A DNA stretch of 64,000 bases, from assembly GCA_963727315.1 (NCBI GenBank), contig CAVSFE010000002.1, positions 407,723 to 471,722 on the forward strand. The letters run 5' to 3'. Shown here one piece after another: positions 42,573 to 56,464 of this stretch (within the stretch, counting starts at the first letter, position 1; every line of letters begins with the position of its first letter). The notes beneath the pieces were generated by a model that saw only the letters and a program-made list of their open reading frames with translations, was not told the origin of the DNA and searched no databases. A program made the position numbers and the translations under genes. The DNA comes from an uncultured Chloroflexia bacterium (GTDB lineage: Bacteria > Chloroflexota > Dehalococcoidia > Dehalococcoidales > RBG-16-60-22).

Positions 42573-43004
42573 CTAAATATTGCGGGCGGTCTCCATCCCA
42601 TGGCTGATGGCATCGGCAATCAGGAGCGGCTCTTTACAATCGCCGATAGCGAAGAGTTCAGGCACCTTGCCCTTCAGGCCTTCGAACAACGTCGGGTCGG
42701 GAAGCAAAGGAAGGGCGGGGATAATGGTATCGGCGGGAATGGTCTGCTTTTTACCGTCTTTATCAATTATCGTCAGCCCTTTATCAGTTATTGCCACATA
42801 CTCTTTAACGCCGGCGATGAGGGTCACGCCTTTTTTCCGGAACCAGTCGAAAAGATAAGCCTGGATAACGTCGACCATCCCCTGCCCGAGGGTCGGGGAC
42901 TTCTCCACGATAGTGACCCGCCGGCCACGCTTGACGAGGAACTCGCCGAGCTCACAACCGTGCAGGCTGCCCCCGATAATGATGACTCTTTTGCCAATTG
43001 GCAA
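42573..43004 (-). CDS. FadH-like (2,4-dienoyl-CoA reductase / OYE-fused) flavoenzyme, C-terminal fragment; same gene as 43016..44659, with a frameshift near 43080
   Basis: GKRVIIIGGSLHGCELGEFL...AIGDC... is the second nucleotide-binding domain. The shifted frame upstream reads LSIVRLKFYLRFIGPKTLRWLTRFYLPIGKRV and joins directly. Confidence 0.75.
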   Translation of the reverse strand: MPIGKRVIIIGGSLHGCELGEFLVKRGRRVTIVEKSPTLGQGMVDVIQAYLFDWFRKKGVTLIAGVKEYVAITDKGLTIIDKDGKKQTIPADTIIPALPLLPDPTLFEGLKGKVPELFAIGDCKEPLLIADAISHGMETARNI

Positions 43005-43015
43005 ATAAAATCTGG

Positions 43016-44659
43016 TCAGCCACCGCAGGGTTTTCGGGCCGATAAAACGCAGATAAAATTTGAGCCTGACGATGGAGAGTCGGCGCTGCTGACGACATTA
43101 GCCCGGTTTATCCCGGGGATATCGGGAACTGCAGGCTTACCACCACCGGCGATAATAACCGCATCCGGCCTGATTTTCCCGATAACTTCCGGAGTTATAG
43201 ATTTGCCGAGGACTATTTTTACACCGAGCTTCTTAAGCTGGCGCTTAAAATATTTAATCATGGCAGGCAGGTCTTCAAGCTCGGTGCCTTTTACCAAGGC
43301 GGCGATGGGCAGCAGCCCGCCGAGCTTAGTTAGCCGGTCATATAGCGTCACGTCATGGCCGCGCAAGGCAGCTACCCTGGCCGCCTCAAGACCGGCCGGA
43401 CCCGCCCCGACCACCACCACCTTTTTCTTTTTCTCCGCTTTTTCAACGATATTGTAGTCTTTACCCATAAAGGCGTTAATGCGGCACCGCCGGCTCCCCA
43501 GGCAGTTCTCGCAGGCGGTGCAGGGCGCGATGTCATCCAGCCTCCCGGCGATTATTTTAGCGGGCAGGTCGGGGTCGGCCTGAAGGCGCCGCGTCATGGC
43601 GATAAAATCGGCTTTGCCCTCACGAAGGACTTTCTCGCCCAACCGCGGGTCGAGCTTGCCGACCACCATGACGGGGATAGTCACCTCCCGTTTTATCCCC
43701 GCCGCCAGATTAACGTTCCAGGCGGCACCGCGCCCAAGGGCGTTGTATTCTTTCGGAAAGCTCTTCAACGGTATAACCGGCTCCGGATAAAAAAGGAGGT
43801 CGGGGAGATAAGCGCCGACGTGATATCCGAGCCAGTGGCTCCTCACGTGGATGGCATCGGCGCCGGCGGCCTGCAGCAAACGGGCGGTGTTTTTAGCATC
43901 CTCGACCGTCAAGCACTGCTCATCGGCGATACCGACGATACGCCCGATTTCAACGCCATTAATGCAGACGGAGACGGGAAAGTCCCCGCCAAGGCGGTTC
44001 TTGATTTCCCGCACAATAGAGGTCACGAAACGCGCCCGGTTTTCCACCGACCCGCCGTAGATGTCCTGCCGGCGGTTCCAGAAAGGCGACAGGAAGTTGT
44101 GCAGCAGGTGGCTGCTGGCGGCATTAACGTCCACGCCGTCGAAGCCGGCCTTCCGGGCCCGCACCGCGGCGCCGGCGAACTTATCAATAATTGCCTCGAT
44201 TTCCGGAATCGTAAGCACGTGGGGCATTTCGTTATGAAAATCGTTTTCCGATTTCATCGTGACCGGCGAGGCGGCGATGGGCTGACCTTCGAAAAAGGGC
44301 GTGATGCCCAGCAACGCCCTCTGCCAGGGGCCGTCGTGGTTCATCTGCATAAACGTGGGGCAGCCGTACCTATGGATGACCTCGACCAGCTCGCTGAGAC
44401 CTTTGATGAACCTGTCGTCGTCGATACGGTAGCGCTGCTGCCAGCGCGCGCCCAGAGGGTAGTCGATGGTGGGCGACTCGACAATCAGGAGCCCGACGCC
44501 GCCCCGCGCCAGCGACTCGTAGTAAGCCAAGATAGCGGCGTTCATACGGGTCTCGTCCTGATGCCACATGAAAGTCCCGGCACCGGTCTTGACGATGCGA
44601 TTCCTGGTCTTTACCGACCCGATGCGGCCGGGCTCTAAAAGCTTATCGAATTTGCCCAT
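43016..44659 (-). CDS. FadH-like NADH:flavin oxidoreductase (OYE TIM barrel + Fe-S + FAD/NAD domains), N-terminal fragment
   Basis: The OYE-like N-terminus is ...IVKTGAGTFMWH..., ...HDGPW... The Cys cluster is CTACENCLGSRRC. VVVVGAGPAGLEAARVAALRGH is also present. The last ~25 codons are out of frame. Confidence 0.75.
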   Translation of the reverse strand: MGKFDKLLEPGRIGSVKTRNRIVKTGAGTFMWHQDETRMNAAILAYYESLARGGVGLLIVESPTIDYPLGARWQQRYRIDDDRFIKGLSELVEVIHRYGCPTFMQMNHDGPWQRALLGITPFFEGQPIAASPVTMKSENDFHNEMPHVLTIPEIEAIIDKFAGAAVRARKAGFDGVDVNAASSHLLHNFLSPFWNRRQDIYGGSVENRARFVTSIVREIKNRLGGDFPVSVCINGVEIGRIVGIADEQCLTVEDAKNTARLLQAAGADAIHVRSHWLGYHVGAYLPDLLFYPEPVIPLKSFPKEYNALGRGAAWNVNLAAGIKREVTIPVMVVGKLDPRLGEKVLREGKADFIAMTRRLQADPDLPAKIIAGRLDDIAPCTACENCLGSRRCRINAFMGKDYNIVEKAEKKKKVVVVGAGPAGLEAARVAALRGHDVTLYDRLTKLGGLLPIAALVKGTELEDLPAMIKYFKRQLKKLGVKIVLGKSITPEVIGKIRPDAVIIAGGGKPAVPDIPGINRANVVSSADSPSSGSNFICVLSARKPCGG

Positions 44660-44691
44660 ATCGCGCTTTCCTCTGATAGTCTAACGGTGAT

Positions 44692-45084
44692 TCACTTTTC
44701 CAGCATCTCTTTGAGCGGCGCCCAGTAATAGTCCCGCCAGCCCTGCGAAACGTCACCGGCAAACTCCTCCGGGACGCCCGTCTGGAGAAAGGTGAGCTGC
44801 GTGCCGCCGGCGGCCGCCTTCAACGCGAAGGTGACTTTAGAAGAAATACCTTCCGGCCAATCGCTGGCGCGCCAGGTCTGCAGGATTTTTTTATCCGGTA
44901 CCAACTCCAGATTAACACCCTCCGCATATTCATCGAAGGCGCTAAATTTGCCCCCGACCTCCCGGCTGATGACGGCTTTATCACCCGTGAGTGTTGAATG
45001 CTTTTTAGAGTCCATTAAAGCCTCATAGACATCATGCGGGGTGGCTTTAATCGTTACCGATTGCCTGATCGTTCTGGTTTTCAT
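44692..45084 (-). CDS. SRPBCC / AHSA1 (Aha1-like) domain protein
   Basis: 130 aa. IRQSVTIKATPHDVYEALMDSKKHSTLTG...GGKFSAFD...LTFLQTGVP. Confidence 0.7.
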   Translation of the reverse strand: MKTRTIRQSVTIKATPHDVYEALMDSKKHSTLTGDKAVISREVGGKFSAFDEYAEGVNLELVPDKKILQTWRASDWPEGISSKVTFALKAAAGGTQLTFLQTGVPEEFAGDVSQGWRDYYWAPLKEMLEK

Positions 45085-45170
45085 GTTTCATCTCCGCTCG
45101 GATTCTAATTATTCCAAGCTATATAGTAACATTTTTCTCTTATTTCCCAAAATATTCGGCCGCGATGAAT

Positions 45171-46406
45171 TTAGAATATCAGCAGGAACAGCCAGTAGAC
45201 CGCCACGTTCAAAATCGTCAGGGGCACGCCGATTTTCACGAACTCCAGGAAGGTCAGGGTGGCGCCTCTCTTCTCGGCGTTCTGTATAATAATGATATTG
45301 CTGGCCGCGCCGAGGATGGTCAGGTTGCCGGCGATGGTACTCCCCGCCGCCAGCGCCATCATGCCCGTGGTCATGGCGCCGGCCTGCAACAGCACCGGCA
45401 AATAGAGCGCCACCAGCGGGACATTGGAGAGCAACTGGCTCAGGAGAACGCTCACGCCCAGAATCATCGCCGGCGAACTCAGATTTACATTGGTGGATGC
45501 AATAGCCTGCTGGAAATAGCCGGAGTCCCAGACGCTCTGCATCAGGACGAACATCGACGCAAAGAAAATCAGGGTAAACCAGTCGAGGCGCTTCAATATG
45601 CCCGGCCGCCGCGGAATAAAAAGGAAAATCGGCAGCGCCGCCGCCAGGCCGATATAGGTCAACTTGAAATCGATGCCCGGCGCAACCGCCACCAGCAATA
45701 TCTTTACCAGCACCAGAACGACCAGAATTACCAGAGAAATCCTGGCCAGTCCCGCCAGCCGGGCGTCTTTCAGAGGCTCTACCGACGGCACCGAAGGCTT
45801 ATCATGAAAATGCTTGCGGTAGAACAACCTCAACAGCCCGTAAGCTATGCCCAGATTGATAAGGGTCGGCAGCATGAGGTATTTAAAGAAAGTAACGAAA
45901 GGGTTGGCGACGTTGCCGTGGATGGCTATCAGCAGATTCTGCGGGTTGCCGATGGGGCTCATCACGCTGCCAATGGTCACGGCAAAAGCCAGGGAAAGCA
46001 AGAGGATTTTGGGCTGCGTATTGGCCTGGCTGGCCAGGGCCAGGACAACGGGCGTCCCGATGATAGCCAGCGTATCGTTCAGGAGCAGCGCCGACAGCAG
46101 TCCCATGCCAAAAAGTATCAGGAGTACCAGAGAATTCAGAGTCCGCGCCTTTCCAAAAAACCGGCAAGCAAGGTGGCCGAGATAGCCGCTGTCTTCCATC
46201 GCCTGTCCGATGGTGAAAACGCAGAACAGGAAAAGCATGACGTCGGCGTTGATAGCTTTTAAGGCGTTAAGCGGAGATATCTGTGCGGTGACCAGAACGA
46301 CCAGCGCCCCCAGCAACATTATCTGCCATATCTGGAGCCTGATATTGCCGACCTTGCGGACGGCGATAAGGACAAAGACGACAGCCAGGGTAATGAGCGA
46401 AATCAT
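45171..46406 (-). CDS. ArsB/NhaD (CitMHS/SLC13-like) family permease
   Basis: 411 aa, polytopic. ...IGSVMSPIGNPQNLLIA... is the typical anion-permease re-entrant motif. Confidence 0.7.
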   Translation of the reverse strand: MISLITLAVVFVLIAVRKVGNIRLQIWQIMLLGALVVLVTAQISPLNALKAINADVMLFLFCVFTIGQAMEDSGYLGHLACRFFGKARTLNSLVLLILFGMGLLSALLLNDTLAIIGTPVVLALASQANTQPKILLLSLAFAVTIGSVMSPIGNPQNLLIAIHGNVANPFVTFFKYLMLPTLINLGIAYGLLRLFYRKHFHDKPSVPSVEPLKDARLAGLARISLVILVVLVLVKILLVAVAPGIDFKLTYIGLAAALPIFLFIPRRPGILKRLDWFTLIFFASMFVLMQSVWDSGYFQQAIASTNVNLSSPAMILGVSVLLSQLLSNVPLVALYLPVLLQAGAMTTGMMALAAGSTIAGNLTILGAASNIIIIQNAEKRGATLTFLEFVKIGVPLTILNVAVYWLFLLIF

Positions 46407-46431
46407 ATAAGGCTGTAACTAAAAAGATCTT

Positions 46432-47055
46432 TTAACCCGGAACACTGATAATGCCGATAAGATTTAATCCCCGAATAACCATGCTGACGGCGATAGCGGC
46501 CAGCAGCAGGCTGAAGACGCGGGAGGTCGCCCGGATGCCGCCCTCCCCCATAAAAGCGGCAATCCTCTGGCTCAAGAGGAAGAAAATCCAGGTAATCACC
46601 ATATTCACCGCAAAAGAAACCAGGACGATGTAAATCTTATACTGGAGCGACAGGAGAAGCAGGGTGGTGATGGTGGCGGGGCCGACCGTCAGCGGCGTCC
46701 CGATAGGGACCACCGCTACCATCTCCTCTTTAATCATGGTGACCATATGGCCGGTGGTCATGTACGAAATCGAAAGCACCAGCAGGATAATCCCGCCGGC
46801 GATGGCGAAAGACCCGACGGAAATATTCATGACATCCAAGATAAACCGCCCGAAGAAAAGGAAGACCAAACCGACGATAGTGGCGGTAATGACGGCAAGG
46901 TGGACCATCCGGAGCCGCTCCGGTCTCGTCTTATTTTCGCCCATGGTGATGACAAAGGGCAGGTTGCCAAAGGCATCGATAACGATGAACAGGGGCACGA
47001 AGGTCATCACGAAATCTTGCCAGGACACCTTAAAGCATCCCTCCCGGGCAGACAA
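46432..47055 (-). CDS. MarC family (UPF0056) membrane protein
   Basis: ...FVPLFIVIDAFGNLPFVI..., about 6 TM helices, ~200 aa. Confidence 0.7.
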   Translation of the reverse strand: MSAREGCFKVSWQDFVMTFVPLFIVIDAFGNLPFVITMGENKTRPERLRMVHLAVITATIVGLVFLFFGRFILDVMNISVGSFAIAGGIILLVLSISYMTTGHMVTMIKEEMVAVVPIGTPLTVGPATITTLLLLSLQYKIYIVLVSFAVNMVITWIFFLLSQRIAAFMGEGGIRATSRVFSLLLAAIAVSMVIRGLNLIGIISVPG

Positions 47056-47069
47056 TCGGACTATCTATA

Positions 47070-47543
47070 TTATAGCTTTTTTCTAAGGACAAGTTTATCG
47101 TCGCCGGGCGTGTAAAAATCGGGGATGCAGGCCACGGTCTCGTAGCCGCGGCGCTCGTAGAATTGGCGGGTATTTTCGTAGAGCGGCGTCGAGGACGTCT
47201 CGATAATAGCCAGTCTGCCCCCGGCCTTCTTAATCGCCGTTTCCGCCGCTTCCGAAAGCATTTTCCCGATACCATGCCCGCGCTTCGCCCGGTCGACCGC
47301 CACCCAGTAGATATCCCAGGTGCCCACGGTGCAGGGCGTCTCGCCGTAGCAAATATACCCCGCGATTTTGCCGTCTTCCTCGGCGATAAGGGTGAAATAA
47401 CCGGCCCGGGGGTCGTTAAGATAGCTGTCAATGACCTCCTCCGCCACCACTACCTCGAAAGATTTAAATTCGGGCGTATTGCGGAGTATTCGTATCAGCG
47501 CCGATTTGTCCCCGGCGACCATGGGGCGGATCCTGACGGTCAT
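47070..47543 (-). CDS. GNAT family N-acetyltransferase
   Basis: MTVRIRPMVAGD...WVAVDRAKRGHGIGKMLSEAAE (R/Q-x-x-G-x-G/A acetyl-CoA motif). Confidence 0.8.
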   Translation of the reverse strand: MTVRIRPMVAGDKSALIRILRNTPEFKSFEVVVAEEVIDSYLNDPRAGYFTLIAEEDGKIAGYICYGETPCTVGTWDIYWVAVDRAKRGHGIGKMLSEAAETAIKKAGGRLAIIETSSTPLYENTRQFYERRGYETVACIPDFYTPGDDKLVLRKKL

Positions 47544-48543
47544 AGTCTTTTTTCTCCAGAGCCAGTTTCACAATTTTATCAACAAACTGCGTATAATTCA
47601 TGCCGACCGCCAGGGCCTGCCGGGCCGCGCCGGTGCCCGGCGAGATATCCGGGTTAGGGTTGACTTCCATGACGTTGAGCTTCCCCGCTTCGTCCAGGCG
47701 CATATCCACCCGCGCGTACCCGCGGCAACCCAACAACTTATAAGCCGCCAGGGCCGTCCCGGCAACATAGTCCCGCTCCTCAGGTTCTATCTCCGCCGGG
47801 CAAACGACCTTGGTCCCTTTAAAATAAACGCTGTCCTCCTCCCACTTGGCCTCGAAGCTCAGGATGCGGGGCACCCCCGGCGACAGCGAATAGACAATCT
47901 CGGAAACGGGCAACACGACACACTCCGAGTTGCCCATGACCGTGGCGTTAAACTCGCGCCCACCGACGAAACGCTCGACCAAGGCGGCGCTGCCGTAACA
48001 TTCCGCGATGACTTTGACCTGCCTCGCCAGCGACGGAAAATCGTTGACCACGCTGTCCGCGGTGATACCGTGGCTGGCGTCCTCGGCGCGGGGCTTGACG
48101 ATACAGGGATAATCGAGGTGGAACGTGGACAGCGTCTCCGGGTTGAGCAACTGAAAGTCCGCCGTGGGAATGCCGGCGGCCTGAAGCAGCACCTTGACCT
48201 TGGCTTTATCCAGGGCCAGCCGGAGCACCGCGGCCTCGCAGCCGGTGAAAGGCAGCCCCAGCTCCGCCAGTGTTTCCGGCACCAGGGCTTCCGTCTCCGG
48301 CTCGCCGCAAAAACCCTCGAAAAGATTGAAGACCAACAGTACTTCCAGCGATGCCAGCTTCTGACGGGCCGTCTTAAAGGGCGGCACCAGCGGCAGGAGG
48401 ACTACCTCATGTCCCAACTCGACTATCGAGGCGCGCACCGCTTCCACCGCTTCAAGGACGCCGATAACCGCCTTCTGTTCATGGGTACGGTCATAGCGCG
48501 ACGGGTTCGGCTCGTTATAGACGACGGCTACACGCGCACACAT
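47464..48543 (-). CDS. D-Ala-D-Ala-ligase-like ATP-grasp enzyme (the 3' tail is probably out of frame)
   Basis: VAVVYNEP...CIVKPRAEDASHGI...VMEVNPNPDISPG. The last ~27 codons overlap the GNAT gene by 80 nt. One extra A in the A6 run (T6 at 47548-47553 on +) would end the protein at ...LALEKKRL with a TGA overlapping the GNAT ATG. Confidence 0.75.
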   Translation of the reverse strand: MCARVAVVYNEPNPSRYDRTHEQKAVIGVLEAVEAVRASIVELGHEVVLLPLVPPFKTARQKLASLEVLLVFNLFEGFCGEPETEALVPETLAELGLPFTGCEAAVLRLALDKAKVKVLLQAAGIPTADFQLLNPETLSTFHLDYPCIVKPRAEDASHGITADSVVNDFPSLARQVKVIAECYGSAALVERFVGGREFNATVMGNSECVVLPVSEIVYSLSPGVPRILSFEAKWEEDSVYFKGTKVVCPAEIEPEERDYVAGTALAAYKLLGCRGYARVDMRLDEAGKLNVMEVNPNPDISPGTGAARQALAVGMNYTQFVDKIVKLALEKKDYDRQDPPHGRRGQIGADTNTPQYARI

Positions 48544-49529
48544 TGCGGGTACCTCTCTGTAGCGGCATCAAGCACACTACCGATTAGTGCCTCATATTTC
48601 CAACCCAGCATCAGCGCCATAATAACGAGGTCGCTGTAGCTCCCGAGTCCGGGGAGGGGGTTGATTTCGATAAAGTACGGTGTGCCGTCACGGCTGACAC
48701 GGAAGTCGATGCGGGAGAAGTCGCGGCAGCCGAGCGTTTTAAAGGCGGCAACGGAGAAACGCTGCATTTTATCAAGCGTTTCTTCGGGCAGCCGGGCGGG
48801 ACACTCATAGTCCACAAGATTGACGTAGTCGCGCTTCACTTCCAGCGAATAGACGAAATGCGCGACGGGCTTTTTGGGCACGACGCGCATCATGCCCACT
48901 ATCTGCGGCGGCGAGTTGCCGACCATGCCCACAGTCACCTCATCGCCGTCGATAAACTCCTCCACCATGACCGGCTGGCGATAGCTGTCCAGAATTCTCC
49001 GGACTTCCGCTTCCGCCCGGGGGACGTTATGCGCCAGTGAGGTCAGGCGGATGCCCTTACTCGAGCCTTCGGAGGCCGGCTTAATGATGACGGGGAATTT
49101 TATCTTTTCCCAGGGCGCCCGGCGCAGCTCCTCCCCGCCGCCAATCACCAGCCAGCCGGGGGTGCTGATACCCTCCGCCGCCACCAGCTTTTTCGTCAGC
49201 GGTTTATCGAGGCACACCGCCAGGCAAAGCGGGTCGGAGCCGGTATAGGGAATATCCAGCATCTCCAGGACGGCCGGCACCTGGGCTTCGCGACTGCGGT
49301 ATGTCCCGCGGCCTTCGGCGACGTTAAAAACGATATCAACGCTCTCGCGGCGGATGTTATCGAGGAAGCGCGTACCGCCGCCCAGCCTGATGACCTCGTG
49401 CCCCCTCGATTCGAGGGCCGCCGATATCATCGCCACCGTTTCCGGAGAATCGTATTCTTCCAGCGCGTCCTCGACGGAGAGATGCCCTTCTACGGCCTCT
49501 TTAAGGTCATACGATAACCCGATCCGCAT
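48528..49529 (-). CDS. D-Ala-D-Ala-ligase-like ATP-grasp enzyme
   Basis: MRIGLSYDLK...VIIKPASEGSSKGI...FIEINPLPGL. Confidence 0.8.
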   Translation of the reverse strand: MRIGLSYDLKEAVEGHLSVEDALEEYDSPETVAMISAALESRGHEVIRLGGGTRFLDNIRRESVDIVFNVAEGRGTYRSREAQVPAVLEMLDIPYTGSDPLCLAVCLDKPLTKKLVAAEGISTPGWLVIGGGEELRRAPWEKIKFPVIIKPASEGSSKGIRLTSLAHNVPRAEAEVRRILDSYRQPVMVEEFIDGDEVTVGMVGNSPPQIVGMMRVVPKKPVAHFVYSLEVKRDYVNLVDYECPARLPEETLDKMQRFSVAAFKTLGCRDFSRIDFRVSRDGTPYFIEINPLPGLGSYSDLVIMALMLGWKYEALIGSVLDAATERYPQCVRV

Positions 49530-50757
49530 CTACTTCTCCTTCGACTTTCACCGGCAGGTCGGCGTCCGCCAACAGACTATCGACGATGCCACTCACCGGC
49601 GCCCCGACAGCATCGGGGTGAGTCGGCGAATTCGGATTACGATAACGGAAGACCTTGCCTTCATAGTTTTTCAATAACAACTCGTCCCTGGTCATTGACA
49701 GCACGTAGTTAGGCTGCAGAGGCACCTTGCCGCCGCCGTTGACCAGGTCCACGACGAAACTGGGCACGGCCAGGCCACTGGTATGCCCGCGCATCCCTTC
49801 GATGATTTTAATGCCAACCTCAACCGGGGTGCGCAGATGCTCCGTCCCCTGCACCTCGTCGCACTGGAAGAGGTAGTAGGGACGTACTTTAATTTTAAGC
49901 AGTCCCTGGCAGAGCTTCAGCTGGGTCGAAACGCTATCGTTGATGCCCCTCAACAAAACAGTCTGGTTATTGACCGGCACGCCGGCGCGCAGCAGGCGGT
50001 CGCAGGCGGCCGCCGACTCCGGCGTTATCTCGCGGGGGTGGTTGAAGTGGGTGTTCAACCATATCGGGCCGTGCCTCGACAGCATGTCGCAGAGCTCGGC
50101 GTCAATACGCTGCGGCAGCACCACGGGGAAGCGGGTACCGATACGGATGATTTCGATATGCTTGATTTCCCGTATTTTAGAGATAATCATCTCCAGGTGG
50201 CCCGTCGAAAGCGTCAGCGGGTCGCCGCCGGAGATGATGACATCCCTGACTTTCGTATTGCGGCGCAGGTAGTCCAGCATGGCTTCTATCTCGTTCCAGG
50301 GACGCACCCAGCCGCCATGCCGCCATTCCCTCTTGCGCGTGCAGTGACGGCAGAGCATGGGACAGATATCGGTAAGCACCATCAATACGCGGTCGGGATA
50401 GCGGTGCACCAGGCCGGGAACCACCGAGTCCTCTTTTTCCGCCAACGGGTCTTCCAGACCGATATCGCTCATGGAAATCTCAAGAATAGAAGGGACCGCC
50501 TGTTTCCTCACCGGGTCATTGGGGTCGTGCGGGGTTAACGAGCGACAGGTAGTAAGGAGTGATGGCAAGGGGATAACGCTGGCAAACCAGAGCGATTTGC
50601 TCTTTTTCCTCGATGGATAGCGGGACCAGCCGGCTGAGCTGGTCAACCGAGGTGATGCGGTTACGGAAGTGCCACTTCCAGTCATTCCAGGAACTATCGG
50701 GAACGTTCCCGAACAGTCTATATCTACCGGCAAGGCTTTTACCGGGGGGCTCGTCAT
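49507..50757 (-). CDS. KamA-family radical-SAM 2,3-aminomutase, main fragment; same gene as 50516..50902, with a frameshift near 50530
   Basis: HDPNDPVRKQAVP...GLVHRYPDRVLMVLTDICPMLCRHCTRK (CxxxCxxC)...ISGGDPL. The first ~75 codons of the track ORF are out of frame. Confidence 0.8.
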   Translation of the reverse strand: MTSPPVKALPVDIDCSGTFPIVPGMTGSGTSVTASPRLTSSAGWSRYPSRKKSKSLWFASVIPLPSLLTTCRSLTPHDPNDPVRKQAVPSILEISMSDIGLEDPLAEKEDSVVPGLVHRYPDRVLMVLTDICPMLCRHCTRKREWRHGGWVRPWNEIEAMLDYLRRNTKVRDVIISGGDPLTLSTGHLEMIISKIREIKHIEIIRIGTRFPVVLPQRIDAELCDMLSRHGPIWLNTHFNHPREITPESAAACDRLLRAGVPVNNQTVLLRGINDSVSTQLKLCQGLLKIKVRPYYLFQCDEVQGTEHLRTPVEVGIKIIEGMRGHTSGLAVPSFVVDLVNGGGKVPLQPNYVLSMTRDELLLKNYEGKVFRYRNPNSPTHPDAVGAPVSGIVDSLLADADLPVKVEGEVDADRVIV

Positions 50758-50902
50758 CGATTTTTTTGGTGATCAGGGTTCTACTGGGAGGTTCTTCAAC
50801 TTCGCTTCGAGATAAGGTTTCCGTTGTCATTCTGGTAGTACCGGGGGTGGTGCGGGTTTTACTGGCCACCGATGACGTTTTCACTTTTCTTTTTTTTAAC
50901 AC
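50516..50902 (-). CDS. KamA-family aminomutase, N-terminal fragment
   Basis: ...SSWNDWKWHFRNRITSVDQLSRLVPLSIEEKEQIALVCQRYPLAITPYYLSLVNP is the typical KamA N-terminus. Removing the G at 50530 gives ...LVNPHDPNDPVRKQ... Confidence 0.75.
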   Translation of the reverse strand: MLKKRKVKTSSVASKTRTTPGTTRMTTETLSRSEVEEPPSRTLITKKIDDEPPGKSLAGRYRLFGNVPDSSWNDWKWHFRNRITSVDQLSRLVPLSIEEKEQIALVCQRYPLAITPYYLSLVNPARPQ

Positions 50903-50952
50903 TCCTTCTTAACTAAATTTGTTTTATCTGTAACGCTTTTTTCGCTAATTTC

Positions 50953-50981
50953 TTGTGCTAACTTGACATTCCTGTTATAAT
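50953..50981 (+). promoter_or_regulatory. putative promoter (TTGTGC - 17 nt - TATAAT)
   Basis: A perfect -10 hexamer at 50976-50981, in the divergent region between the kamA-like operon and the wHTH gene. Confidence 0.4.
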
Positions 50982-50985
50982 ATAT

Positions 50986-51001
50986 AGGAATTTTAATTCC
51001 T
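50986..51001. promoter_or_regulatory. 16-bp palindrome AGGAATT-TT-AATTCCT, candidate operator
   Basis: Perfect 7-bp arms, beginning 5 nt after the -10 hexamer. Confidence 0.35.
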
Positions 51002-51108
51002 AAATTTAATTATACAACTCCCTATAAAATTGTCAATAGATTTTTTAGATTATAACCGAAAAGATAAAAAATATTTTTAGGGAACATTGAGCGAAAGGAG
51101 GCGAGAGT

Positions 51109-51417
51109 ATGCCGGGATGGAAATTCCTGACCAATCATGCCATGGTACTCTGCCTCATCGCCCAGCATCCGCGCATCACCGCCCGTGAAATCGCTTCGAC
51201 GATAGGCATCACGGAAAAGGCCACGCGTAACATCATCAACGACCTCGAAGCGGACGGCTACGTCACGAAAAAGAGGGAAGGCCGGCGGATCAAATACAGC
51301 TTCGACCCCGACATGCCGCTGCGCAGCGAGACCCAGCAGGACAAGGCCATCGGCGACCTCCTGGAGACCCTCGGCTGGAAACGAAAAAGCCGGGCGAGGA
51401 AAGCCATCGCCGTTTAG
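51109..51417 (+). CDS. small winged-helix DNA-binding protein (MarR/ArsR-like)
   Basis: ...HPRITAREIASTIGITEKATRNIINDLEADGYVTKKREGRRIKY. RBS AAGGAGG. Confidence 0.65.
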   Translation: MPGWKFLTNHAMVLCLIAQHPRITAREIASTIGITEKATRNIINDLEADGYVTKKREGRRIKYSFDPDMPLRSETQQDKAIGDLLETLGWKRKSRARKAIAV

Positions 51418-51734
51418 GTTATCCCCCCTTCAGCCGAAAAGCCCCGGCCCTACCCCGACTATTTACAACCCCGACCCATCAGATACAATGAACATCTAGG
51501 TAAAGATATCCCTCATTTTGGAAAAACTCCGCTGTACAACGATAAAAGACTTGACAACTTTGTAATAGTATTATAAAGTTGACTAAATCCGCGCAAAGAA
51601 ACATCTTAAAAACGCCATCTCGACCGTACCATTAAGAATATAAAATATCAACAAAGCGGGAGGTGATATATAAGTAAAAGATATGGATAAAAAGGGAAAA
51701 GGGTATCCCAGAAAAACAGGAGGTTTATACAGGT

Positions 51735-53042
51735 ATGTGGAAAAGGTCCATTAAATATGCTTTACCATTGATAATTTGTCTCGTATTTTTAATTGCCTTT
51801 ATACCGGGCTGCAAAGAGGAGGCAACGACGACTCCTCCAGTTACCAGCCCCACCGTAACGGCGTCACCGTCTCCGACACCGCCAACGGCAAATGAAATCG
51901 TCATCGGGGCTTCGCGGGACATCACCGGGCCGATGGCCGGTTTCCAGGACTTTGGCTTTGCCGCCGTCTATAAGATGTGGGCGGCCGAAGTCAACGCCGC
52001 CGGCGGCATCAACGTGGCCGGGAAGAAACTCCCGGTCAGGATAATAGAGTACGATGACGGCTCCGACACAGCGAGAGTCGCCAGTAATATCGAGAAGCTG
52101 TGCACGCAGGACCATGTCAACTTCCTCTTCGGGCCTACCGGCACGACCCCGCTTTTCGCCGCGGCGCCTATCGCCAATAAATACAAGACGTTAATAATAT
52201 GCGGCGAAGGCGGCGCCACCACCCTCACGCCGAAGCTGCCCGGCCTGCCTTACGTCTTCTCCGTGTTGAACTACTCCGACCACTTCCAGCTACCCGTCTT
52301 CGCGCAAATCATGAAGGACGCGGGGGCCAAGACGGCATATATCTGCTGGCTGGAAAACCTGCACGGCGCCGAGTACAACCTTGTCGCCCAAACCGAGTTC
52401 CTTGCAAATGGCATCCAGATCGTGGGCGAGTCGAGCATACCGATTGATATCGCCGACATGGAGCCGATAATTAAACAAGCCCAGGCTTTGAATCCCGATA
52501 TCTTCTTCATGGACGCCTATCCGAACAATAATATCCTTTTCATGCAGACGGCCTTAGCGCTTAACTATAGCCCGAAAGCCATCCTGATCGGCCCGGGTTG
52601 CAACTTCGGGTTCTTCCCGCTCACGTTTGGCGCTGCTCTGGAGGATGTCTTCGGCGAGGGCGCCTGGAACCGGAAGAGCTCCGCCGCGGCTAACGCATTT
52701 GCGGACAAAATACTCGCCGTGGTAGGTTTACCGAATATGGACTGGTGGGGATCCATAGACTACTATGCTTCGCTACAGTTCTTCCAGCAGGCGATTGAGA
52801 AAGCCGCTTCCCTCGATAACGACAAGGTCCTGAAAGTGATGGAAACCGCACATTTTAACACTGTTCTGGGAGACTTTTATTGGGACTGCGCCGGCGGCGG
52901 CACAGGCGGTGGCCTGCTACCTCAGGCGGTCTACGCCGGACAAATCGGGCAGTGGCAGAACGGTATGTTTGAGGTCGTCGACCCCGGCGCCAAACGCACC
53001 GCAGCACCGATCTATCCCAAGCCGGCATGGCCAGCACCCTAG
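51735..53042 (+). CDS. ABC transporter substrate-binding lipoprotein, LivK/Peripla_BP_6 type
   Basis: Lipobox AFIPGCKE, a Thr/Pro linker, then ...IVIGASRDITGPMAG...KLPVRIIEYDDGSD... Confidence 0.8.
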   Translation: MWKRSIKYALPLIICLVFLIAFIPGCKEEATTTPPVTSPTVTASPSPTPPTANEIVIGASRDITGPMAGFQDFGFAAVYKMWAAEVNAAGGINVAGKKLPVRIIEYDDGSDTARVASNIEKLCTQDHVNFLFGPTGTTPLFAAAPIANKYKTLIICGEGGATTLTPKLPGLPYVFSVLNYSDHFQLPVFAQIMKDAGAKTAYICWLENLHGAEYNLVAQTEFLANGIQIVGESSIPIDIADMEPIIKQAQALNPDIFFMDAYPNNNILFMQTALALNYSPKAILIGPGCNFGFFPLTFGAALEDVFGEGAWNRKSSAAANAFADKILAVVGLPNMDWWGSIDYYASLQFFQQAIEKAASLDNDKVLKVMETAHFNTVLGDFYWDCAGGGTGGGLLPQAVYAGQIGQWQNGMFEVVDPGAKRTAAPIYPKPAWPAP

Positions 53043-53219
53043 TGTATAAACGCATAACGGTAAACAGGTTAAAATAAACAATAGCAGGCTGTCTGGGGGT
53101 CATACGGCGGGGGTTTATCCCCCGCCGGTATCCTCTGAAAAAGATACCTTGCGCGGCCTTCAGCCAGCCTGCTGGTGTAAAATGGTCAATATACGACCCG
53201 TACTCGGGAAGCTAACTTA

Positions 53220-54089
53220 ATGGAGCAATTTCTTAATATATTCCTTGGCGGCTTGTTTATCGGCGGCATCTATTCGCTGGTATCCGTAGGGCTCACCCTG
53301 CAATATGGCGTCGCCAGGGTGCTGAATATCGCCCACGGCGAATTTTTGATGTTCGGGGCTTTCATTACCTTCACGCTGCAGCAACACGGCGTTGACCCAC
53401 TGGTTACCATTCTCATAGTTGGCCCGGTGATGTTTATCGTAGGATTTATCCTGTACCGTACAGTGTTTACGACTATCAGGATAAAATCTCCCAACCCCGG
53501 AGTTTTTGAAAGTAATGGGCTGCTGGCCGCCTTCGGACTCTATTTTATCGTGCAAAATATCGCGATTATCGTGCCGGCCTGGGGCACGAGACCACATAGT
53601 TACGCATATCTATCGAGCGGAGTAAATATCGACGGGACACAATTTACCCTAAATCGGATTGTCGCCGCGGCATTTGCCGTGGCGGTTGGTATAATATTTT
53701 ACCTGTTTTTAGAGCGCACCCGCACCGGCAAGGCTATCAGGGCAGCAGCCCAAGACGCCACCACTGCCGGGTTGATGGGGGTCAATATTAACTACACACT
53801 GGCATTGTGTTTCGGCTTCGGCGCCGCCATGTCGGGCATCGCCGGCGCGCTTATCAGCATCTGTTATCCGATAAACACAGTCATGGGCCTGGGATATACC
53901 GTCATCTCCATCGTCGTCGTTACACTGGGCGGGCTGGGAAGTATCCCGGGCAGCTTTATCGGGGGCTTTATCCTGGGTATCATCGGCACGTGGGTTACAT
54001 ATCTGCAGCCGGCATTGACCATAGCTTCTTATTATGTAATATTTATAATTTTACTGCTGCTGCGGCCGAAGGGACTCCTGGGGAAGTAG
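53220..54089 (+). CDS. livH: branched-chain amino acid ABC transporter permease (LivH-like)
   Basis: 289 aa, polytopic. ...VLNIAHGEFLMFGAF... is the typical LivH motif. Confidence 0.8.
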   Translation: MEQFLNIFLGGLFIGGIYSLVSVGLTLQYGVARVLNIAHGEFLMFGAFITFTLQQHGVDPLVTILIVGPVMFIVGFILYRTVFTTIRIKSPNPGVFESNGLLAAFGLYFIVQNIAIIVPAWGTRPHSYAYLSSGVNIDGTQFTLNRIVAAAFAVAVGIIFYLFLERTRTGKAIRAAAQDATTAGLMGVNINYTLALCFGFGAAMSGIAGALISICYPINTVMGLGYTVISIVVVTLGGLGSIPGSFIGGFILGIIGTWVTYLQPALTIASYYVIFIILLLLRPKGLLGK

Positions 54090-54092
54090 AGA

Positions 54093-55055
54093 ATGGACTT
54101 TAGCAAGATAAACTGGAAACAGGCGGCCAATAAAGCGGGAATACCGCTAGTAATCCTAGTCATACTGGGTTTCCTGCCTTTATACGGCTGGGCGTATGGC
54201 GTTACGCTATTCTCATACTTTCTTTTATATATTATCCTGACCATCAGCTGGGTCATTTTCTCCGGCACCACCGGCTATATCTCGCTGGCGTCAGCCGCGT
54301 TTTACGGCATCGGTATATACGCGGCGGCGTTATTAGGAGGGAAAATACCGTTAATCTTCGTGGTCTTTATCGCAGGCATCGCCAGTTTCGTCATCGCTTT
54401 CCTCGTCGGGGCAATAACACTGAGACTCAAGGGCATCTATTTCGCCATGTTTACCTTCGGCCTGGTACTGCTCGTGAAGGAGATAATTTTATTCTGGGAA
54501 ACCGCTGTCAATCACACCGTCGGCAGGTTCGTCATACTGGAAAGCAACAATGCCATTTACTATTATTTCCTGGGCATCGCCGCCGTCACGATGGTTATGG
54601 CCTACCTGATAAGAAAGTCGAAATACGGGCTGGCGTTGCAAAGTATCGGGGAGAATGAAGAAGCGGCCGCGCATGCCGGCATCAATGTGACCATGGTCAA
54701 GATTATCATCTACGCCATAAGCGCGATATTTATGGGTGCGGCGGGGGTCATCATGGCGACAAAACTGACTTATGTCGACCCGGATGTCGCCTTTAACCCC
54801 ATGATGTCTTTCAACCCGGTGCTGATGGCTATTTTCGGCGGGATGGGGAATTTTTATGGGCCGGTTATCGGCGCAGTAATGTTCAGCTATATCCAGGAAC
54901 TATTACAGACGGGCGTCTGGAGCAAATACTATAGGCTCATTTTTGGCGCCATCCTGGTAGCTACAATACTATATCTGCCCAGCGGGCTGATGGGGCTAAT
55001 TCAGAATCTATGGAATCGAATTACGGGAGCGAGACGTGCACTTACTCGAGGGTGA
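54093..55055 (+). CDS. livM: branched-chain amino acid ABC transporter permease (LivM-like)
   Basis: 320 aa, polytopic. ...GYISLASAAFYGIGIY... Confidence 0.8.
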   Translation: MDFSKINWKQAANKAGIPLVILVILGFLPLYGWAYGVTLFSYFLLYIILTISWVIFSGTTGYISLASAAFYGIGIYAAALLGGKIPLIFVVFIAGIASFVIAFLVGAITLRLKGIYFAMFTFGLVLLVKEIILFWETAVNHTVGRFVILESNNAIYYYFLGIAAVTMVMAYLIRKSKYGLALQSIGENEEAAAHAGINVTMVKIIIYAISAIFMGAAGVIMATKLTYVDPDVAFNPMMSFNPVLMAIFGGMGNFYGPVIGAVMFSYIQELLQTGVWSKYYRLIFGAILVATILYLPSGLMGLIQNLWNRITGARRALTRG

Positions 55056-55773
55056 AAACGTCACCAAAAATTTTGGCGGCCTGGCGGCCGTATCAGCCGT
55101 GGACTTCTTCGTCGACGAGGGAGAGATAGTCGGCCTTATCGGTCCTAACGGCGCCGGTAAGACAACGCTATTCAATTTAATATCCGCGGCGCTCAACCCC
55201 AAACCGGGAGAAATAAGATTCAAAGGCAAAAAAATCAACGGCCTGAACCCGTACCAGATCTGCCGGCTGGGTATCGCCAGGACTTTCCAGACCGTAAAAA
55301 TATTCAGCAGTATGTCCGTGATTGATAACGTGCGGATAGGCTCGCTTTTCGGGGCGCAAAAGAGGCTTTCAGCCAAGGAGGCTAACAACGCAGCCATCGA
55401 GTCGCTGGAATTCGTAGGGCTAGCGGACGCGGCGCAGGCGCCCGCCCGGGACCTGACGCTGTCGTCGCAGAAACGTCTCGAAGTCGCCAGGGCCCTCGCC
55501 ACCAAACCCGCCCTTTTACTGCTCGATGAAATCATGGCCGGGCTCAATCAGACCGAACTTAACCAGGCCATGGAGCTGGTAAAAAAAATACAGGGCAAAG
55601 GCATTACCGTTATCATGATTGAGCATGTTATGAAGGCAATCATGAATATCTGCAGCCGGATTATCGTGTTACATCACGGCCAGAAAATCGCCGAGGGGAC
55701 CCCTCAAGAGGTGGCCAACAGTAAAACAGTCATCGAGGTATATCTGGGAGTGCAATCCAATGCTGGAAGTTAA
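55036..55773 (+). CDS. livG: ABC transporter ATP-binding protein (LivG-like)
   Basis: GTG start. Walker A GPNGAGKTT, signature LSSQKRLEVARAL, Walker B LLLLDE. Confidence 0.85.
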   Translation: MHLLEGENVTKNFGGLAAVSAVDFFVDEGEIVGLIGPNGAGKTTLFNLISAALNPKPGEIRFKGKKINGLNPYQICRLGIARTFQTVKIFSSMSVIDNVRIGSLFGAQKRLSAKEANNAAIESLEFVGLADAAQAPARDLTLSSQKRLEVARALATKPALLLLDEIMAGLNQTELNQAMELVKKIQGKGITVIMIEHVMKAIMNICSRIIVLHHGQKIAEGTPQEVANSKTVIEVYLGVQSNAGS

Positions 55774-56464
55774 GAACGTAAACGTTTTTTATGGCCAGAT
55801 ACAGGTACTCTGGGACGTCAGCCTGAAGGTTGACAAGGGAGAGATTGTGGCCATCATCGGCGCCAACGGGGCCGGCAAATCGACCCTAGTCAATGCTATC
55901 ACCGGTCTTTTACGCATCACATCCGGCGAAATCATCTTCCTGGACAAAAGAATCGACCGGTTGCCGCCGTACGCTATCACGGAACTCGGCATCTCTCATA
56001 TACCGGAGGGGAGAAAGCTATTCACAGAAATGAGCGTCAGCGAGAACCTCGAGATGGGCGCATATTCGAGAATAGCCTGGAAAAACAAACAAAAAACGAT
56101 CGAGGAAGTCTATCAGCTATTCCCCAGTTTAAAAGAAAGAAGACATCAACTGGCCCGCACGTTGAGCGGCGGAGAGCAGCAAATGGTGGCGATGGGGCGC
56201 GGCCTCATGTCCCGGCCCAAACTGTGCATCATCGATGAGCCCTCCAACGGACTGGCCCCGCTAGTGGTGATGGAGGTCTTCCAGATAATCAAGAGGCTCC
56301 GCGAGAGCGGGATAACGATTTTGCTCATCGAACAAAACGTAAAACAAACCCTGGAGACATCCGATAGGGCTTACGTGCTGGAAAACGGCCGGGTGGTAAT
56401 CGAAGGCCCCTGCGCGATGTGTCTAGAGCACGAACATATCAGAAAAGCTTACATGGGGCTGTAA
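55760..56464 (+). CDS. livF: ABC transporter ATP-binding protein (LivF-like)
   Basis: Walker A GANGAGKST, signature LSGGEQQMVAMGRGL, Walker B LCIIDEPS. Confidence 0.85.
   Translation: MLEVKNVNVFYGQIQVLWDVSLKVDKGEIVAIIGANGAGKSTLVNAITGLLRITSGEIIFLDKRIDRLPPYAITELGISHIPEGRKLFTEMSVSENLEMGAYSRIAWKNKQKTIEEVYQLFPSLKERRHQLARTLSGGEQQMVAMGRGLMSRPKLCIIDEPSNGLAPLVVMEVFQIIKRLRESGITILLIEQNVKQTLETSDRAYVLENGRVVIEGPCAMCLEHEHIRKAYMGL

What the first reader, a model, noticed from the sequence alone, without database searches (positions are those of the whole stretch)
47070..50902. Operon of a KamA-family 2,3-aminomutase, two Ddl-like ATP-grasp ligases and a GNAT: candidate pathway to an acylated or ligated beta-amino-acid product
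The radical-SAM aminomutase (CPMLCRHC, KamA-type N- and C-terminal regions) is followed, with overlapping stops and starts, by two paralogous D-Ala-D-Ala-ligase-like ATP-grasp enzymes and a GNAT acetyltransferase. A MarC-family membrane protein and an ArsB/NhaD-type permease follow on the same strand. Aminomutase plus acetyltransferase (ablA/ablB) is the established route to the osmolyte N-epsilon-acetyl-beta-lysine. The two extra ATP-dependent carboxylate-amine ligases have no place in that route. They suggest a beta-lysine (or beta-glutamate) containing di- or tripeptide, or another amide-linked solute or metabolite. The aminomutase is frame-broken in this assembly (see above).
Basis: partly seen in the sequence, partly recalled or inferred. 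Interest (0 to 1): 0.65.

Follow-up and report, generated by a model that had tools for sequence, protein, structure and literature searches.

The report
Conserved beta-lysine peptide-building operon
This operon encodes four enzymes that always travel together in many anaerobic bacteria and some probable archaea: one that makes beta-lysine, two ATP-driven bond-forming ligases wrongly labelled as cell-wall enzymes, and an acetyltransferase. They most likely build a small acetylated beta-lysine peptide that I could not find described in the searchable literature.

Summary
On the minus strand, with overlapping stops and starts, lie KamA (50902..49507), two Ddl-like ATP-grasp ligases (49529..48528 and 48543..47464) and a GNAT (47543..47070). 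A MarC/NAAT transporter and a CitMHS/ArsB-type permease follow. KamA is broken by one extra base at 50528, and a second gene nearby is also frame-broken, so assembly error is likely.

- Co-conservation: the order KamA-AG1-AG2-GNAT holds in all 80 best genome loci, which are Dehalococcoidia with two exceptions (L031 reordered). All four parts recur in 10 of 10 sampled distant contexts, in other gene orders and as AG::GNAT and AG::AG fusions.
- Not ordinary Ddl: both ligases score below the curated Ddl cut-offs and lack the D-Ala-binding residues, yet keep the whole catalytic set.

KamA keeps the lysine-specifying Asp293 and Asp330, so the product is beta-lysine, not beta-glutamate. The GNAT is not AblB. 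In about 40% of related loci an acetylpolyamine-amidohydrolase-like deacetylase follows. A perfect sigma-70 promoter, a palindromic operator and a divergent wHTH regulator precede the operon.

Best reading: lysine to beta-lysine, then two amide ligations and one reversible N-acetylation, giving a small peptide-like solute. The product and its role are inferred. No literature was found.

The parts
51109..51417 (+). Divergently transcribed small winged-helix regulator (102 aa, MarR/ArsR-like); presumed repressor of the operon
   Evidence: Pfam HTH_24/MarR_2. A weak PDB match to ArsR-type YgaV. A gene of this family lies in the same divergent position in most related loci that reach upstream of KamA; it forms a 39-locus family in the ORF clustering. 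The repressor role is inferred.
51009..51036 (-). Sigma-70-type promoter, TTGACA-16 nt-TATAAT, 12 of 12 consensus matches
   Evidence: A TTGAC[AT]-N16-18-TAnnnT site is present in 46 of 46 wHTH-KamA intergenic regions of related loci.
50985..51002 (.). Perfect palindrome TAGGAATT-AA-AATTCCTA directly downstream of the -10 box; candidate operator. A third AGGAAT half-site lies at 50963-50973
   Evidence: The pattern AGGAA[AT]-N4-[AT]TTCCT is found in 13 of 46 related intergenic regions. Binding by the wHTH protein is inferred.
49507..50902 (-). KamA-family radical-SAM/PLP lysine 2,3-aminomutase, frame-broken by one extra A at 50528. The repaired protein is about 453-464 aa. It has a lineage-specific N-terminal extension of about 55 aa and a C-terminal tail
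   Evidence: E 3.4e-143 to C. subterminale LAM (2A5H); about 55% identity in the MAFFT alignment to the partly reconstructed chain. C125/C129/C132, R134, D293, D330 and K337 are kept. The repaired protein scores 484.9 bits on AblA (cut-off 525.4) and 336 on the KamA subfamily (cut-off 199).
48528..49529 (-). ATP-grasp ligase AG1 ('a-type', 333 aa), Ddl-like fold, not a D-Ala-D-Ala ligase
   Evidence: Pfam Dala_Dala_lig_C. NCBIfam Ddl 187.7 bits against a cut-off of 243. Catalytic, ATP and Mg residues are kept while D-Ala-binding residues are replaced. An a-type partner is present in every sampled module.
47464..48543 (-). ATP-grasp ligase AG2 ('b-type', 359 aa), Ddl-like fold, not a D-Ala-D-Ala ligase. 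Its C-terminal tail overlaps the GNAT start
   Evidence: NCBIfam Ddl 148.6 bits against a cut-off of 243. AF2 model with pLDDT 77 and pTM 0.81, with Ddl/VanA as the top Foldseek matches. Signature residues are shown. Fused to the GNAT or to the a-type ligase in other lineages.
47070..47543 (-). Small GNAT N-acetyltransferase (157 aa; alternative start at 47522)
   Evidence: Pfam Acetyltransf_1/7/10. Best solved relative is 2R7H, 'putative D-alanine N-acetyltransferase', E 4e-31. Weak similarity to EctA, diamine acetyltransferase 2 and RimI. No AblB (TIGR03827) hit.
46432..47055 (-). MarC/NAAT-family membrane transporter (207 aa), accessory
   Evidence: TIGR00427, 117.8 bits against a cut-off of 99.2. 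Starts 14 nt after the GNAT stop. Follows the GNAT in 12 of 55 related loci that have enough downstream sequence.
45171..46406 (-). CitMHS / ArsB-NhaD-superfamily permease (411 aa), accessory
   Evidence: Pfam CitMHS, E 5.5e-50. Weak DASS and NhaD hits. Present in 8 of 55 related loci.

Best explanation
The operon encodes a four-enzyme pathway that makes a small amide-linked, N-acetylated derivative of beta-lysine.

Step 1. KamA converts free L-lysine to beta-lysine. This is strongly supported by residues.

Steps 2 and 3. Two distinct, anciently diverged Ddl-fold ATP-grasp ligases each form one amide bond through an acyl-phosphate intermediate. The chemistry is inferred from the retained catalytic residues. 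The partner substrates are unknown.

Step 4. The GNAT acetylates an amine with acetyl-CoA. The most likely target is the epsilon-amino group of the beta-lysine moiety (inferred).

Beta-lysine has exactly three reactive groups: a carboxylate, a beta-amine and an epsilon-amine. The simplest product is therefore a tripeptide-like molecule with beta-lysine at its centre, or a short beta-lysyl peptide, carrying one acetyl group. In many relatives a dedicated acetylpolyamine-amidohydrolase-like enzyme can remove that acetyl group.

The operon is driven by a consensus promoter that overlaps a palindromic operator, and it is probably repressed by the divergently encoded wHTH protein. In this lineage it is co-transcribed with two membrane transporters.

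The most likely role is an inducible cytoplasmic stress or compatible solute. This would parallel N-epsilon-acetyl-beta-lysine and the acetylated dipeptide NAGGN.
For: KamA:
- All KamA copies in the sampled modules keep the Fe-S cysteines, R134, D293, D330 and K337 of lysine 2,3-aminomutase.
- Their best family match is AblA.

Synteny:
- 547 species-level genomes hold an AG2 relative.
- The 80 best loci always show AG1-AG2-GNAT, with KamA wherever the contig reaches that far.
- 10 of 10 distant contexts hold all four parts in four different gene orders. They come from Syntrophales, Victivallales, an archaeal-looking contig and unnamed lineages.
- AG::GNAT and AG::AG fusion proteins exist.

Ligases:
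- Each module has one a-type and one b-type ligase.
- Both types keep K97, K144, R255, D257, E270 and N272 in DdlB numbering.
- Both replace H63 by an invariant Glu.

Acetylation:
- A GNAT-like::APAH-like deacetylase follows in 23 of 55 loci. Its E-value to acetylpolyamine amidohydrolase is 1e-72.
- An ArgE/DapE-type deacylase follows in 5 of 55 loci.
- The GNAT weakly resembles EctA and diamine/thialysine acetyltransferase.
- Different GNAT subfamilies fill the slot in different lineages.

Regulation:
- The promoter is conserved in 46 of 46 related intergenic regions, and an operator palindrome is present.
Against: - No product has been observed. The ligase substrates and the acetylation site are not determined by any test here.
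- Accessory genes differ between lineages, so no transporter or regulator points to a role.
- There is no salt-linked riboswitch or other Rfam element upstream.
- Many host MAGs come from peat, fen and groundwater, which are not obviously saline.
- KamA is frame-broken in this assembly, so the pathway may be inactive in this genome if the break is real.
- The AG1 structure model was poor (pLDDT 52), so no pocket analysis was possible.
Confidence: 0.55

Rival explanations
1. Same enzymology, different product class and role. The ligases string beta-lysine units (or beta-lysine plus another basic amino acid) into a cationic oligomer. This acts as a polyamine surrogate or an exported polycation. 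Acetylation and deacetylation tune its charge or toxicity, as SpeG/SSAT and APAH do for polyamines.
For: - An invariant Glu replaces His63 in both ligase types, and extra acidic residues lie near the substrate sites (D300 in AG1, D299 in AG2). This would suit cationic substrates.
- The accessory deacetylase is closest to acetylpolyamine amidohydrolases.
- The GNAT weakly resembles diamine acetyltransferase 2 and streptothricin acetyltransferase.
- Membrane transporters sit in the operon.
Against: - Two distinct conserved ligases argue for two defined bonds rather than open-ended polymerisation.
- No polymer-length determinant or dedicated exporter is conserved across lineages.
- The residue arguments are indirect.
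Confidence: 0.17
2. The module modifies a macromolecule. Beta-lysine would be ligated by an ATP-grasp enzyme to a protein, comparable to EF-P beta-lysylation or RimK-type tailing, with GNAT acetylation of that protein.
For: - KamA-family EpmB supplies beta-lysine for EF-P modification (established knowledge; PMC2821294 read).
- The KamA copies in many distant modules are short, like EpmB, at 346-383 aa.
- The GNAT's best NCBIfam hit is RimI, and other lineages use RimJ/L-type Acetyltransf_3 domains.
Against: - All module KamAs score far better on AblA (about 480 bits) than on EpmB (about 235-242 bits against a cut-off of 369).
- No efp, epmA or carrier-protein gene appears in any sampled neighbourhood.
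- The ligases are Ddl-type small-molecule enzymes, not RimK or LysX type.
- The APAH-like and ArgE/DapE-like accessories point to small-molecule substrates.
- The module also occurs in an archaeal-looking contig.
Confidence: 0.1
3. This is the ordinary abl route to N-epsilon-acetyl-beta-lysine (KamA plus GNAT). It merely sits next to ordinary cell-wall D-Ala-D-Ala ligase genes.
For: - Public annotations call both ligases 'D-alanine-D-alanine ligase'.
- KamA plus an acetyltransferase is the known two-gene osmolyte route (PMC3543383).
Against: - The ligases fall below all curated Ddl cut-offs and lack the GGxSxE loop, His63, Tyr216 and Leu282.
- They are co-inherited with KamA and the GNAT across phyla and are fused to the GNAT in several lineages.
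- The GNAT does not hit AblB.
Confidence: 0.03
4. In this particular genome the pathway is a decaying remnant. The KamA frameshift is real and the operon no longer makes its product.
For: - There is a single-base insertion at 50528 relative to 8 relatives.
- The insertion is not in a long homopolymer run.
- No intact 100%-identical KamA is in the protein collection; the best hit is 96% identical. The AG2 of this genome is there at 100% identity.
Against: - All other operon genes are intact and well conserved.
- Both halves of KamA remain 82-93% identical to the L001 protein.
- A second conserved gene 7 kb away is also frame-broken. This pattern is typical of assembly errors in a long-contig MAG (1.56 Mb contig).
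Confidence: 0.15

Closest known systems
AblA/AblB pathway to N-epsilon-acetyl-beta-lysine (methanogens; yodP-kamA in Bacillus)
   Same: It starts from a lysine-type 2,3-aminomutase that keeps Asp293 and Asp330. It includes a GNAT acetyltransferase, and in the known cases it is an inducible operon.
   Different: Two obligatory ATP-grasp ligases are added here. The GNAT is a 157-aa 2R7H-like protein, not an AblB (TIGR03827) orthologue. KamA lacks the Zn-site cysteine and most of the C-terminal domain, and it scores below the AblA cut-off.
D-alanine--D-alanine ligase (Ddl) and VanA-type ligases
   Same: Same three-domain ATP-grasp fold (Foldseek E about 1e-23). Same ATP, Mg and transition-state residues, so the acyl-phosphate ligation chemistry is presumably the same.
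   Different: Scores are below the curated cut-offs. The N-terminal GGxSxE loop is absent. His63 becomes Glu, Tyr216 becomes Trp or Arg, and Ser281-Leu282 becomes Ser-Asp (AG1) or Thr-Gly (AG2). The genomic partners are KamA and a GNAT, not mur/ftsQ genes.
Ngg/AsnO pathway to N-acetylglutaminylglutamine amide (NAGGN)
   Same: A GNAT activity is coupled, and often fused, to an ATP-grasp peptide ligase to make a small N-acetylated peptide osmolyte.
   Different: The domain order differs: Ngg is GNAT then ATP-grasp, whereas the fusions here are ATP-grasp then GNAT. No amidotransferase gene is present in the sampled loci. The building block is beta-lysine and there are two ligases. This comparison rests on my own knowledge of NAGGN, not on a test here.
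PylB/PylC of pyrrolysine biosynthesis
   Same: A radical-SAM enzyme rearranges lysine, and a Ddl-like ATP-grasp enzyme then ligates the rearranged amino acid through an amide bond.
   Different: PylB is not in the KamA family. PylC was not among the sequence matches in the PDB. There is no PylD-like dehydrogenase. This is an analogy of logic only.
Other small-molecule ATP-grasp ligases: MysC/MysD of mycosporine-like amino acid synthesis, and carnosine synthase
   Same: In the Mys pathway two ATP-grasp ligases act in sequence, one of them Ddl-like. Carnosine synthase is an ATP-grasp enzyme that ligates a beta-amino acid.
   Different: The scaffolds and partner enzymes are unrelated. No sequence-level relationship was tested. 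This is recalled knowledge.

Membership tests
Lysine 2,3-aminomutase (KamA/AblA) | CxxxCxxC radical-SAM cluster motif | tested here: met
   CPMLCRHC aligns to C125, C129 and C132 of 2A5H.
Lysine 2,3-aminomutase (KamA/AblA) | PLP-binding Lys337, carboxylate-binding Arg134, and epsilon-ammonium-binding Asp293 and Asp330 | tested here: met
   All are conserved in the window protein and in 7 module homologs from other lineages.
Lysine 2,3-aminomutase (KamA/AblA) | Reaches the curated family score | tested here: inconclusive
   The repaired protein scores 484.9 bits against 525.4 for the AblA equivalog, which is not met. It scores 336.4 against 199.2 for the KamA subfamily, which is met. The shortfall matches the missing C-terminal model positions 364-417.
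Lysine 2,3-aminomutase (KamA/AblA) | Structural Zn site (Cys268 plus C-terminal cysteines) and the full C-terminal multimerisation domain | tested here: not met
   Cys268 is replaced by Ser. LAM_C matches only profile positions 1-61 of 127.
Lysine 2,3-aminomutase (KamA/AblA) | Converts L-lysine to beta-lysine | not testable with these tools
   This needs an anaerobic enzyme assay.
Glutamate 2,3-aminomutase | Family score, and replacement of the two lysine-binding Asp residues (Lys and Asn in the Glu enzyme, from my recollection of Ruzicka and Frey 2007) | tested here: not met
   447.2 bits against a cut-off of 650. Both Asp residues are retained.
EpmB (EF-P beta-lysylation) | Family score, and linkage to epmA or efp | tested here: not met
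   234.7 bits against a cut-off of 369.3. No efp or epmA domains appear in any neighbourhood table.
D-alanine--D-alanine ligase | ATP-grasp fold with the ATP, Mg and catalytic residues K97, K144, R255, D257, E270 and N272 | tested here: met
D-alanine--D-alanine ligase | Reaches the curated Ddl family score | tested here: not met
   AG1 scores 187.7 and AG2 148.6 against a cut-off of 243 (NF002378). They score 157.9 and 120.7 against 245.65 (TIGR01205).
D-alanine--D-alanine ligase | D-Ala-binding residues: GGxSxE loop (Glu15), His63, Tyr216, Ser281-Leu282 | tested here: not met
   The loop is absent. H63 becomes E in all 22 module ligases examined. Y216 becomes W or R. L282 becomes D or G. The E. 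coli DdlB reference sequence was verified as 100% identical to 2DLN.
AblB beta-lysine N-epsilon-acetyltransferase | Match to TIGR03827 (GNAT_ablB) | tested here: not met
   No hit even at E up to 1. The best solved relative is 2R7H.
GNAT acetyltransferase superfamily | GNAT domain above the Pfam gathering score | tested here: met
   Acetyltransf_1 scores 53.3 bits against a cut-off of 20.7.
NAGGN-type (Ngg/AsnO) osmolyte system | Coupled GNAT and ATP-grasp, plus a glutamine-dependent amidotransferase | tested here: not met
   GNAT/ATP-grasp coupling and fusion are present. No asparagine-synthase-type gene appears in any sampled locus.

The most novel reading that the evidence does not exclude
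The KamA + a-type ligase + b-type ligase + GNAT module is an undescribed pathway. It is phylogenetically widespread: Dehalococcoidia, Syntrophales, Victivallales, other bacteria and probably archaea. It would make a new class of beta-lysine-centred acetylated peptide metabolite, either a new compatible solute or a polyamine-like molecule of strictly anaerobic microbes.
Probability: 0.55. Interest if true: 0.75.

Novelty: new variant of a known kind. Interest (0 to 1): 0.66.

Why it matters
- This is a four-enzyme module conserved in hundreds of uncultured anaerobe species. That includes the abundant subsurface Dehalococcoidia, which are reported to lack peptidoglycan (my own knowledge). It implies another, unrecognised beta-lysine metabolite.
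- The finding corrects a systematic mis-annotation. Hundreds of 'D-alanine-D-alanine ligases' in these genomes are not cell-wall enzymes.
- MAG-based inferences of 'ablAB osmolyte synthesis' from KamA plus a GNAT may be wrong for these lineages.
- It gives a defined four-gene target for heterologous expression and LC-MS.

Tried and rejected
- Riboswitch or leader RNA upstream. An Rfam E-value scan of 44000-52500 gave only two chance-level hits.
- EF-P-type modification idea. It was weakened by family scores and the lack of efp/epmA neighbours.
- Source genome look-up through the 100%-identical AG2 (P0241) failed: not on record.
- AF2 model of AG1 was too poor to use (pLDDT 52). The AG2 model only confirmed the Ddl fold.
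- The afdb50 fold library was unavailable, so cultured hosts could not be named that way.
- The regulator gave no informative structural relative.
- Neither the APAH-like deacetylase nor the M20 deacylase of related loci is present anywhere in this window.
Nothing describes a KamA plus ATP-grasp module. Only 3 papers in the library contain both words, and none is relevant.
- Cluster look-ups gave only generic names: 'D-alanine-D-alanine ligase' or 'ATP-grasp domain-containing protein'.

Full report
**1. What is in the sequence**

Six genes lie head to tail on the minus strand.
- KamA: two ORFs, 50902..50516 and 50757..49507.
- AG1, an ATP-grasp protein: 49529..48528, 333 aa.
- AG2, a second ATP-grasp protein: 48543..47464, 359 aa.
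- GNAT: 47543..47070, 157 aa.
- MarC/NAAT transporter: 47055..46432.
- CitMHS/ArsB-type permease: 46406..45171.

Pfam and NCBIfam confirm every assignment. The stops and starts of the first four genes overlap by 23 nt, 16 nt and 59-80 nt. The next two genes follow after 14 nt and 25 nt, so this is one transcription unit.

Upstream lies a perfect sigma-70-type promoter, TTGACA-16-TATAAT, at 51036..51009. It is followed directly by the perfect palindrome TAGGAATTAAAATTCCTA at 50985..51002. A divergently transcribed 102-aa winged-helix regulator sits at 51109..51417. No Rfam element is present.

**2. The frame break**

The two KamA ORFs join if one base is removed. Alignment with eight relatives shows a single extra A at 50528, in AACCCCGC[A]CGACCCC. 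The repaired protein matches intact 453-aa homologs at up to 96% identity.

An OYE-type reductase at 44653..42576 is frame-broken in the same way. It is an intact 696-aa protein in L001, an 84%-identical relative. Two breaks within 8 kb of a 1.56-Mb contig suggest assembly error, but a real mutation cannot be excluded.

**3. The aminomutase is a lysine enzyme**

- The repaired protein matches C. subterminale lysine 2,3-aminomutase (2A5H) at E 3.4e-143. A MAFFT alignment to the partly reconstructed chain gives about 55% identity.
- It keeps the cluster cysteines, Arg134, the PLP lysine 337, and both Asp293 and Asp330, which hold the epsilon-ammonium group of lysine.
- From my own knowledge, glutamate 2,3-aminomutases replace those two Asp residues. 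Beta-glutamate is therefore disfavoured.
- Best family scores: AblA 484.9 bits (cut-off 525.4), KamA subfamily 336 (cut-off 199, passed), Glu enzyme 447 (cut-off 650), EpmB 235 (cut-off 369).
- It lacks the Zn-site Cys268 and most of the C-terminal domain.
- In Dehalococcoidia it carries an N-terminal extension of about 55 residues and a conserved C-terminal tail.

**4. The two ligases are not D-Ala-D-Ala ligases**

- Both score below every curated Ddl cut-off: 188 and 149 bits against 243-246.
- The AG2 model (pLDDT 77) has the Ddl fold.
- I aligned both to E. coli DdlB, whose sequence I verified as identical to 2DLN.
- Both proteins keep K97, K144, E180, R255, D257, E270 and N272.
- Both lack the GGxSxE loop.
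- His63 becomes an invariant Glu. Tyr216 becomes Trp or Arg.
- Ser281-Leu282 becomes Ser-Asp in AG1 and Thr-Gly in AG2. Gly276 becomes Asp in AG2.
- AG1 and AG2 are 29% identical to each other and 29-30% identical to DdlB.

Both therefore look catalytically competent, but with different substrates from Ddl and from each other.

**5. Co-conservation**

A scan of one genome per species found 547 genomes with an AG2 relative.

In the 80 best loci, which are Dehalococcoidia except for one contig labelled Deltaproteobacteria and one Syntrophales contig, the order is wHTH(-) then KamA-AG1-AG2-GNAT(+). This holds wherever the contig reaches far enough. The only rearrangement is L031, and every locus without KamA ends at a contig edge.

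An exhaustive representative search gave 1119 relatives at E below 1e-30. These include AG::GNAT fusions of about 500 aa and AG::AG fusions of about 670 aa.

I looked up ten distant contexts, and all ten carry all four parts:

| Locus | Lineage or feature | Arrangement |
|---|---|---|
| L031 | Syntrophales | AG1-AG2-GNAT-KamA |
| L082/83 | unnamed | KamA-AG-AG-GNAT |
| L084 | unnamed | includes an AG::GNAT fusion |
| L085 | archaeal-looking neighbours | AG-KamA-AG::GNAT |
| L086 | unnamed | KamA-AG-AG::GNAT |
| L088 | unnamed | KamA-AG::AG-GNAT |
| L089 | unnamed | AG2-GNAT-KamA-AG1 |
| L090 | unnamed | AG1-AG2-GNAT-KamA |
| L091 | Victivallales | AG1-AG2-GNAT-KamA |

L001, at 84% identity, is a close relative with the window's own order.

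Each module contains exactly one a-type and one b-type ligase. In some lineages the GNAT slot is filled by an unrelated GNAT subfamily, Acetyltransf_3. All the KamA copies keep the lysine residues.

**6. Accessory genes**

ORFs from all loci were clustered. Counts below are for the 55 Dehalococcoidia loci with enough downstream sequence.
- 23 loci carry a 579-aa protein after the GNAT. Its C-terminal domain matches acetylpolyamine amidohydrolases at E 1e-72. Its N-terminal domain is weakly GNAT-like.
- 5 loci carry an ArgE/DapE-type deacylase.
- 12 loci carry MarC and 8 carry the CitMHS permease.
- Neither deacylase is present in this window.

These accessories fit a small molecule that carries an acetylated alkyl-amine and can be deacetylated.

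The GNAT's best solved relative is 2R7H, deposited as a 'putative D-alanine N-acetyltransferase', at E 4e-31. Weaker hits go to EctA, diamine/thialysine acetyltransferase 2 and RimI. AblB is not hit.

**7. Regulation**

A near-consensus promoter occurs in 46 of 46 wHTH-KamA intergenic regions. The AGGAAT-N4-ATTCCT palindrome occurs in 13 of 46. This suggests strong, repressor-gated expression. That is inference.

**8. Interpretation**

What is shown:
- A lysine-type aminomutase, two distinct Ddl-fold ligases with intact catalytic sites, and an acetyltransferase form a module inherited as a unit across phyla.

What is inferred:
- Lysine is converted to beta-lysine.
- Two ATP-dependent amide bonds are formed.
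- One N-acetylation occurs, probably on the epsilon-amine.

Together these give a small peptide-like product. Three modifying enzymes match the three reactive groups of beta-lysine.

Role: an inducible cytoplasmic solute seems most likely, by analogy with N-epsilon-acetyl-beta-lysine and NAGGN. A cationic oligo-beta-lysine or polyamine-like product is a serious alternative. Protein modification is less likely, and ordinary Ddl function is effectively excluded.

**9. Novelty**

- Ten full-text searches found no description of this module.
- Public annotations are generic or misleading.
- All the enzyme families are known, but the combination and its product are not. I therefore rate it a new variant of a known kind.

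Noticed in passing
window 42576-44653 (-): An OYE/2-enoate-reductase-type flavoprotein is frame-broken near 43070-43090. It is an intact 696-aa protein in L001, an 84%-identical relative. With the KamA break, this is the second frameshift within 8 kb, which points to assembly quality.
   Followed up: partly
window 47464-47543; L001 11022-11080: The 3' end of AG2 overlaps the GNAT start by 59-80 nt in another frame. The AG2 tail has low model confidence, but a few positions are invariant. Other Dehalococcoidia have a shorter AG2 with no overlap, and other lineages have an outright AG2::GNAT fusion. The overlap may be a remnant of, or a step towards, fusion.
   Followed up: partly
L004 8672-10411 and 31 other loci (e.g. 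L008, L011, L015, L020, L025): A 579-aa two-domain protein often follows the GNAT. Its N-terminal domain is weakly GNAT-like and its C-terminal domain is acetylpolyamine-amidohydrolase-like. A protein that combines an acetyltransferase-like and a deacetylase domain is unusual. It is absent from this window.
   Followed up: partly
window 49507-49640 and 50740-50902 (KamA termini): The KamA of Dehalococcoidia has a low-complexity N-terminal extension of about 55 aa (EEPP motif). It also has a conserved acidic C-terminal tail (SGxVDSLLADADLPVKxEGEVDADRVIV). Both are absent from clostridial LAM and from the short KamAs of other modules. Their function is unknown.
   Followed up: no
L031 5239-5910: In the Syntrophales genome an IS200/REP-associated tyrosine transposase gene sits directly upstream of the AG1-AG2-GNAT-KamA block. 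This hints that the module may be mobile or recently inserted there.
   Followed up: no
L025 (contig labelled Deltaproteobacteria): This contig carries a Dehalococcoidia-type cluster at 63-70% identity, including the wHTH gene and the APAH-like gene. It may be a mis-binned contig or a horizontal transfer.
   Followed up: no
L089 6338-6973; L091 1286-2107: PTS_EIIA_2-domain proteins (EIIA-Ntr-like regulatory domain) lie next to or near the module in two distant lineages. In L089 the gene is on the same strand, immediately upstream. This could be a regulatory link.
   Followed up: no
window 51735-56464 (+): A complete branched-chain-amino-acid-type ABC uptake system lies just beyond the regulator: a binding protein, two permeases and two ATPases. 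The same arrangement is found in L001.
   Followed up: no
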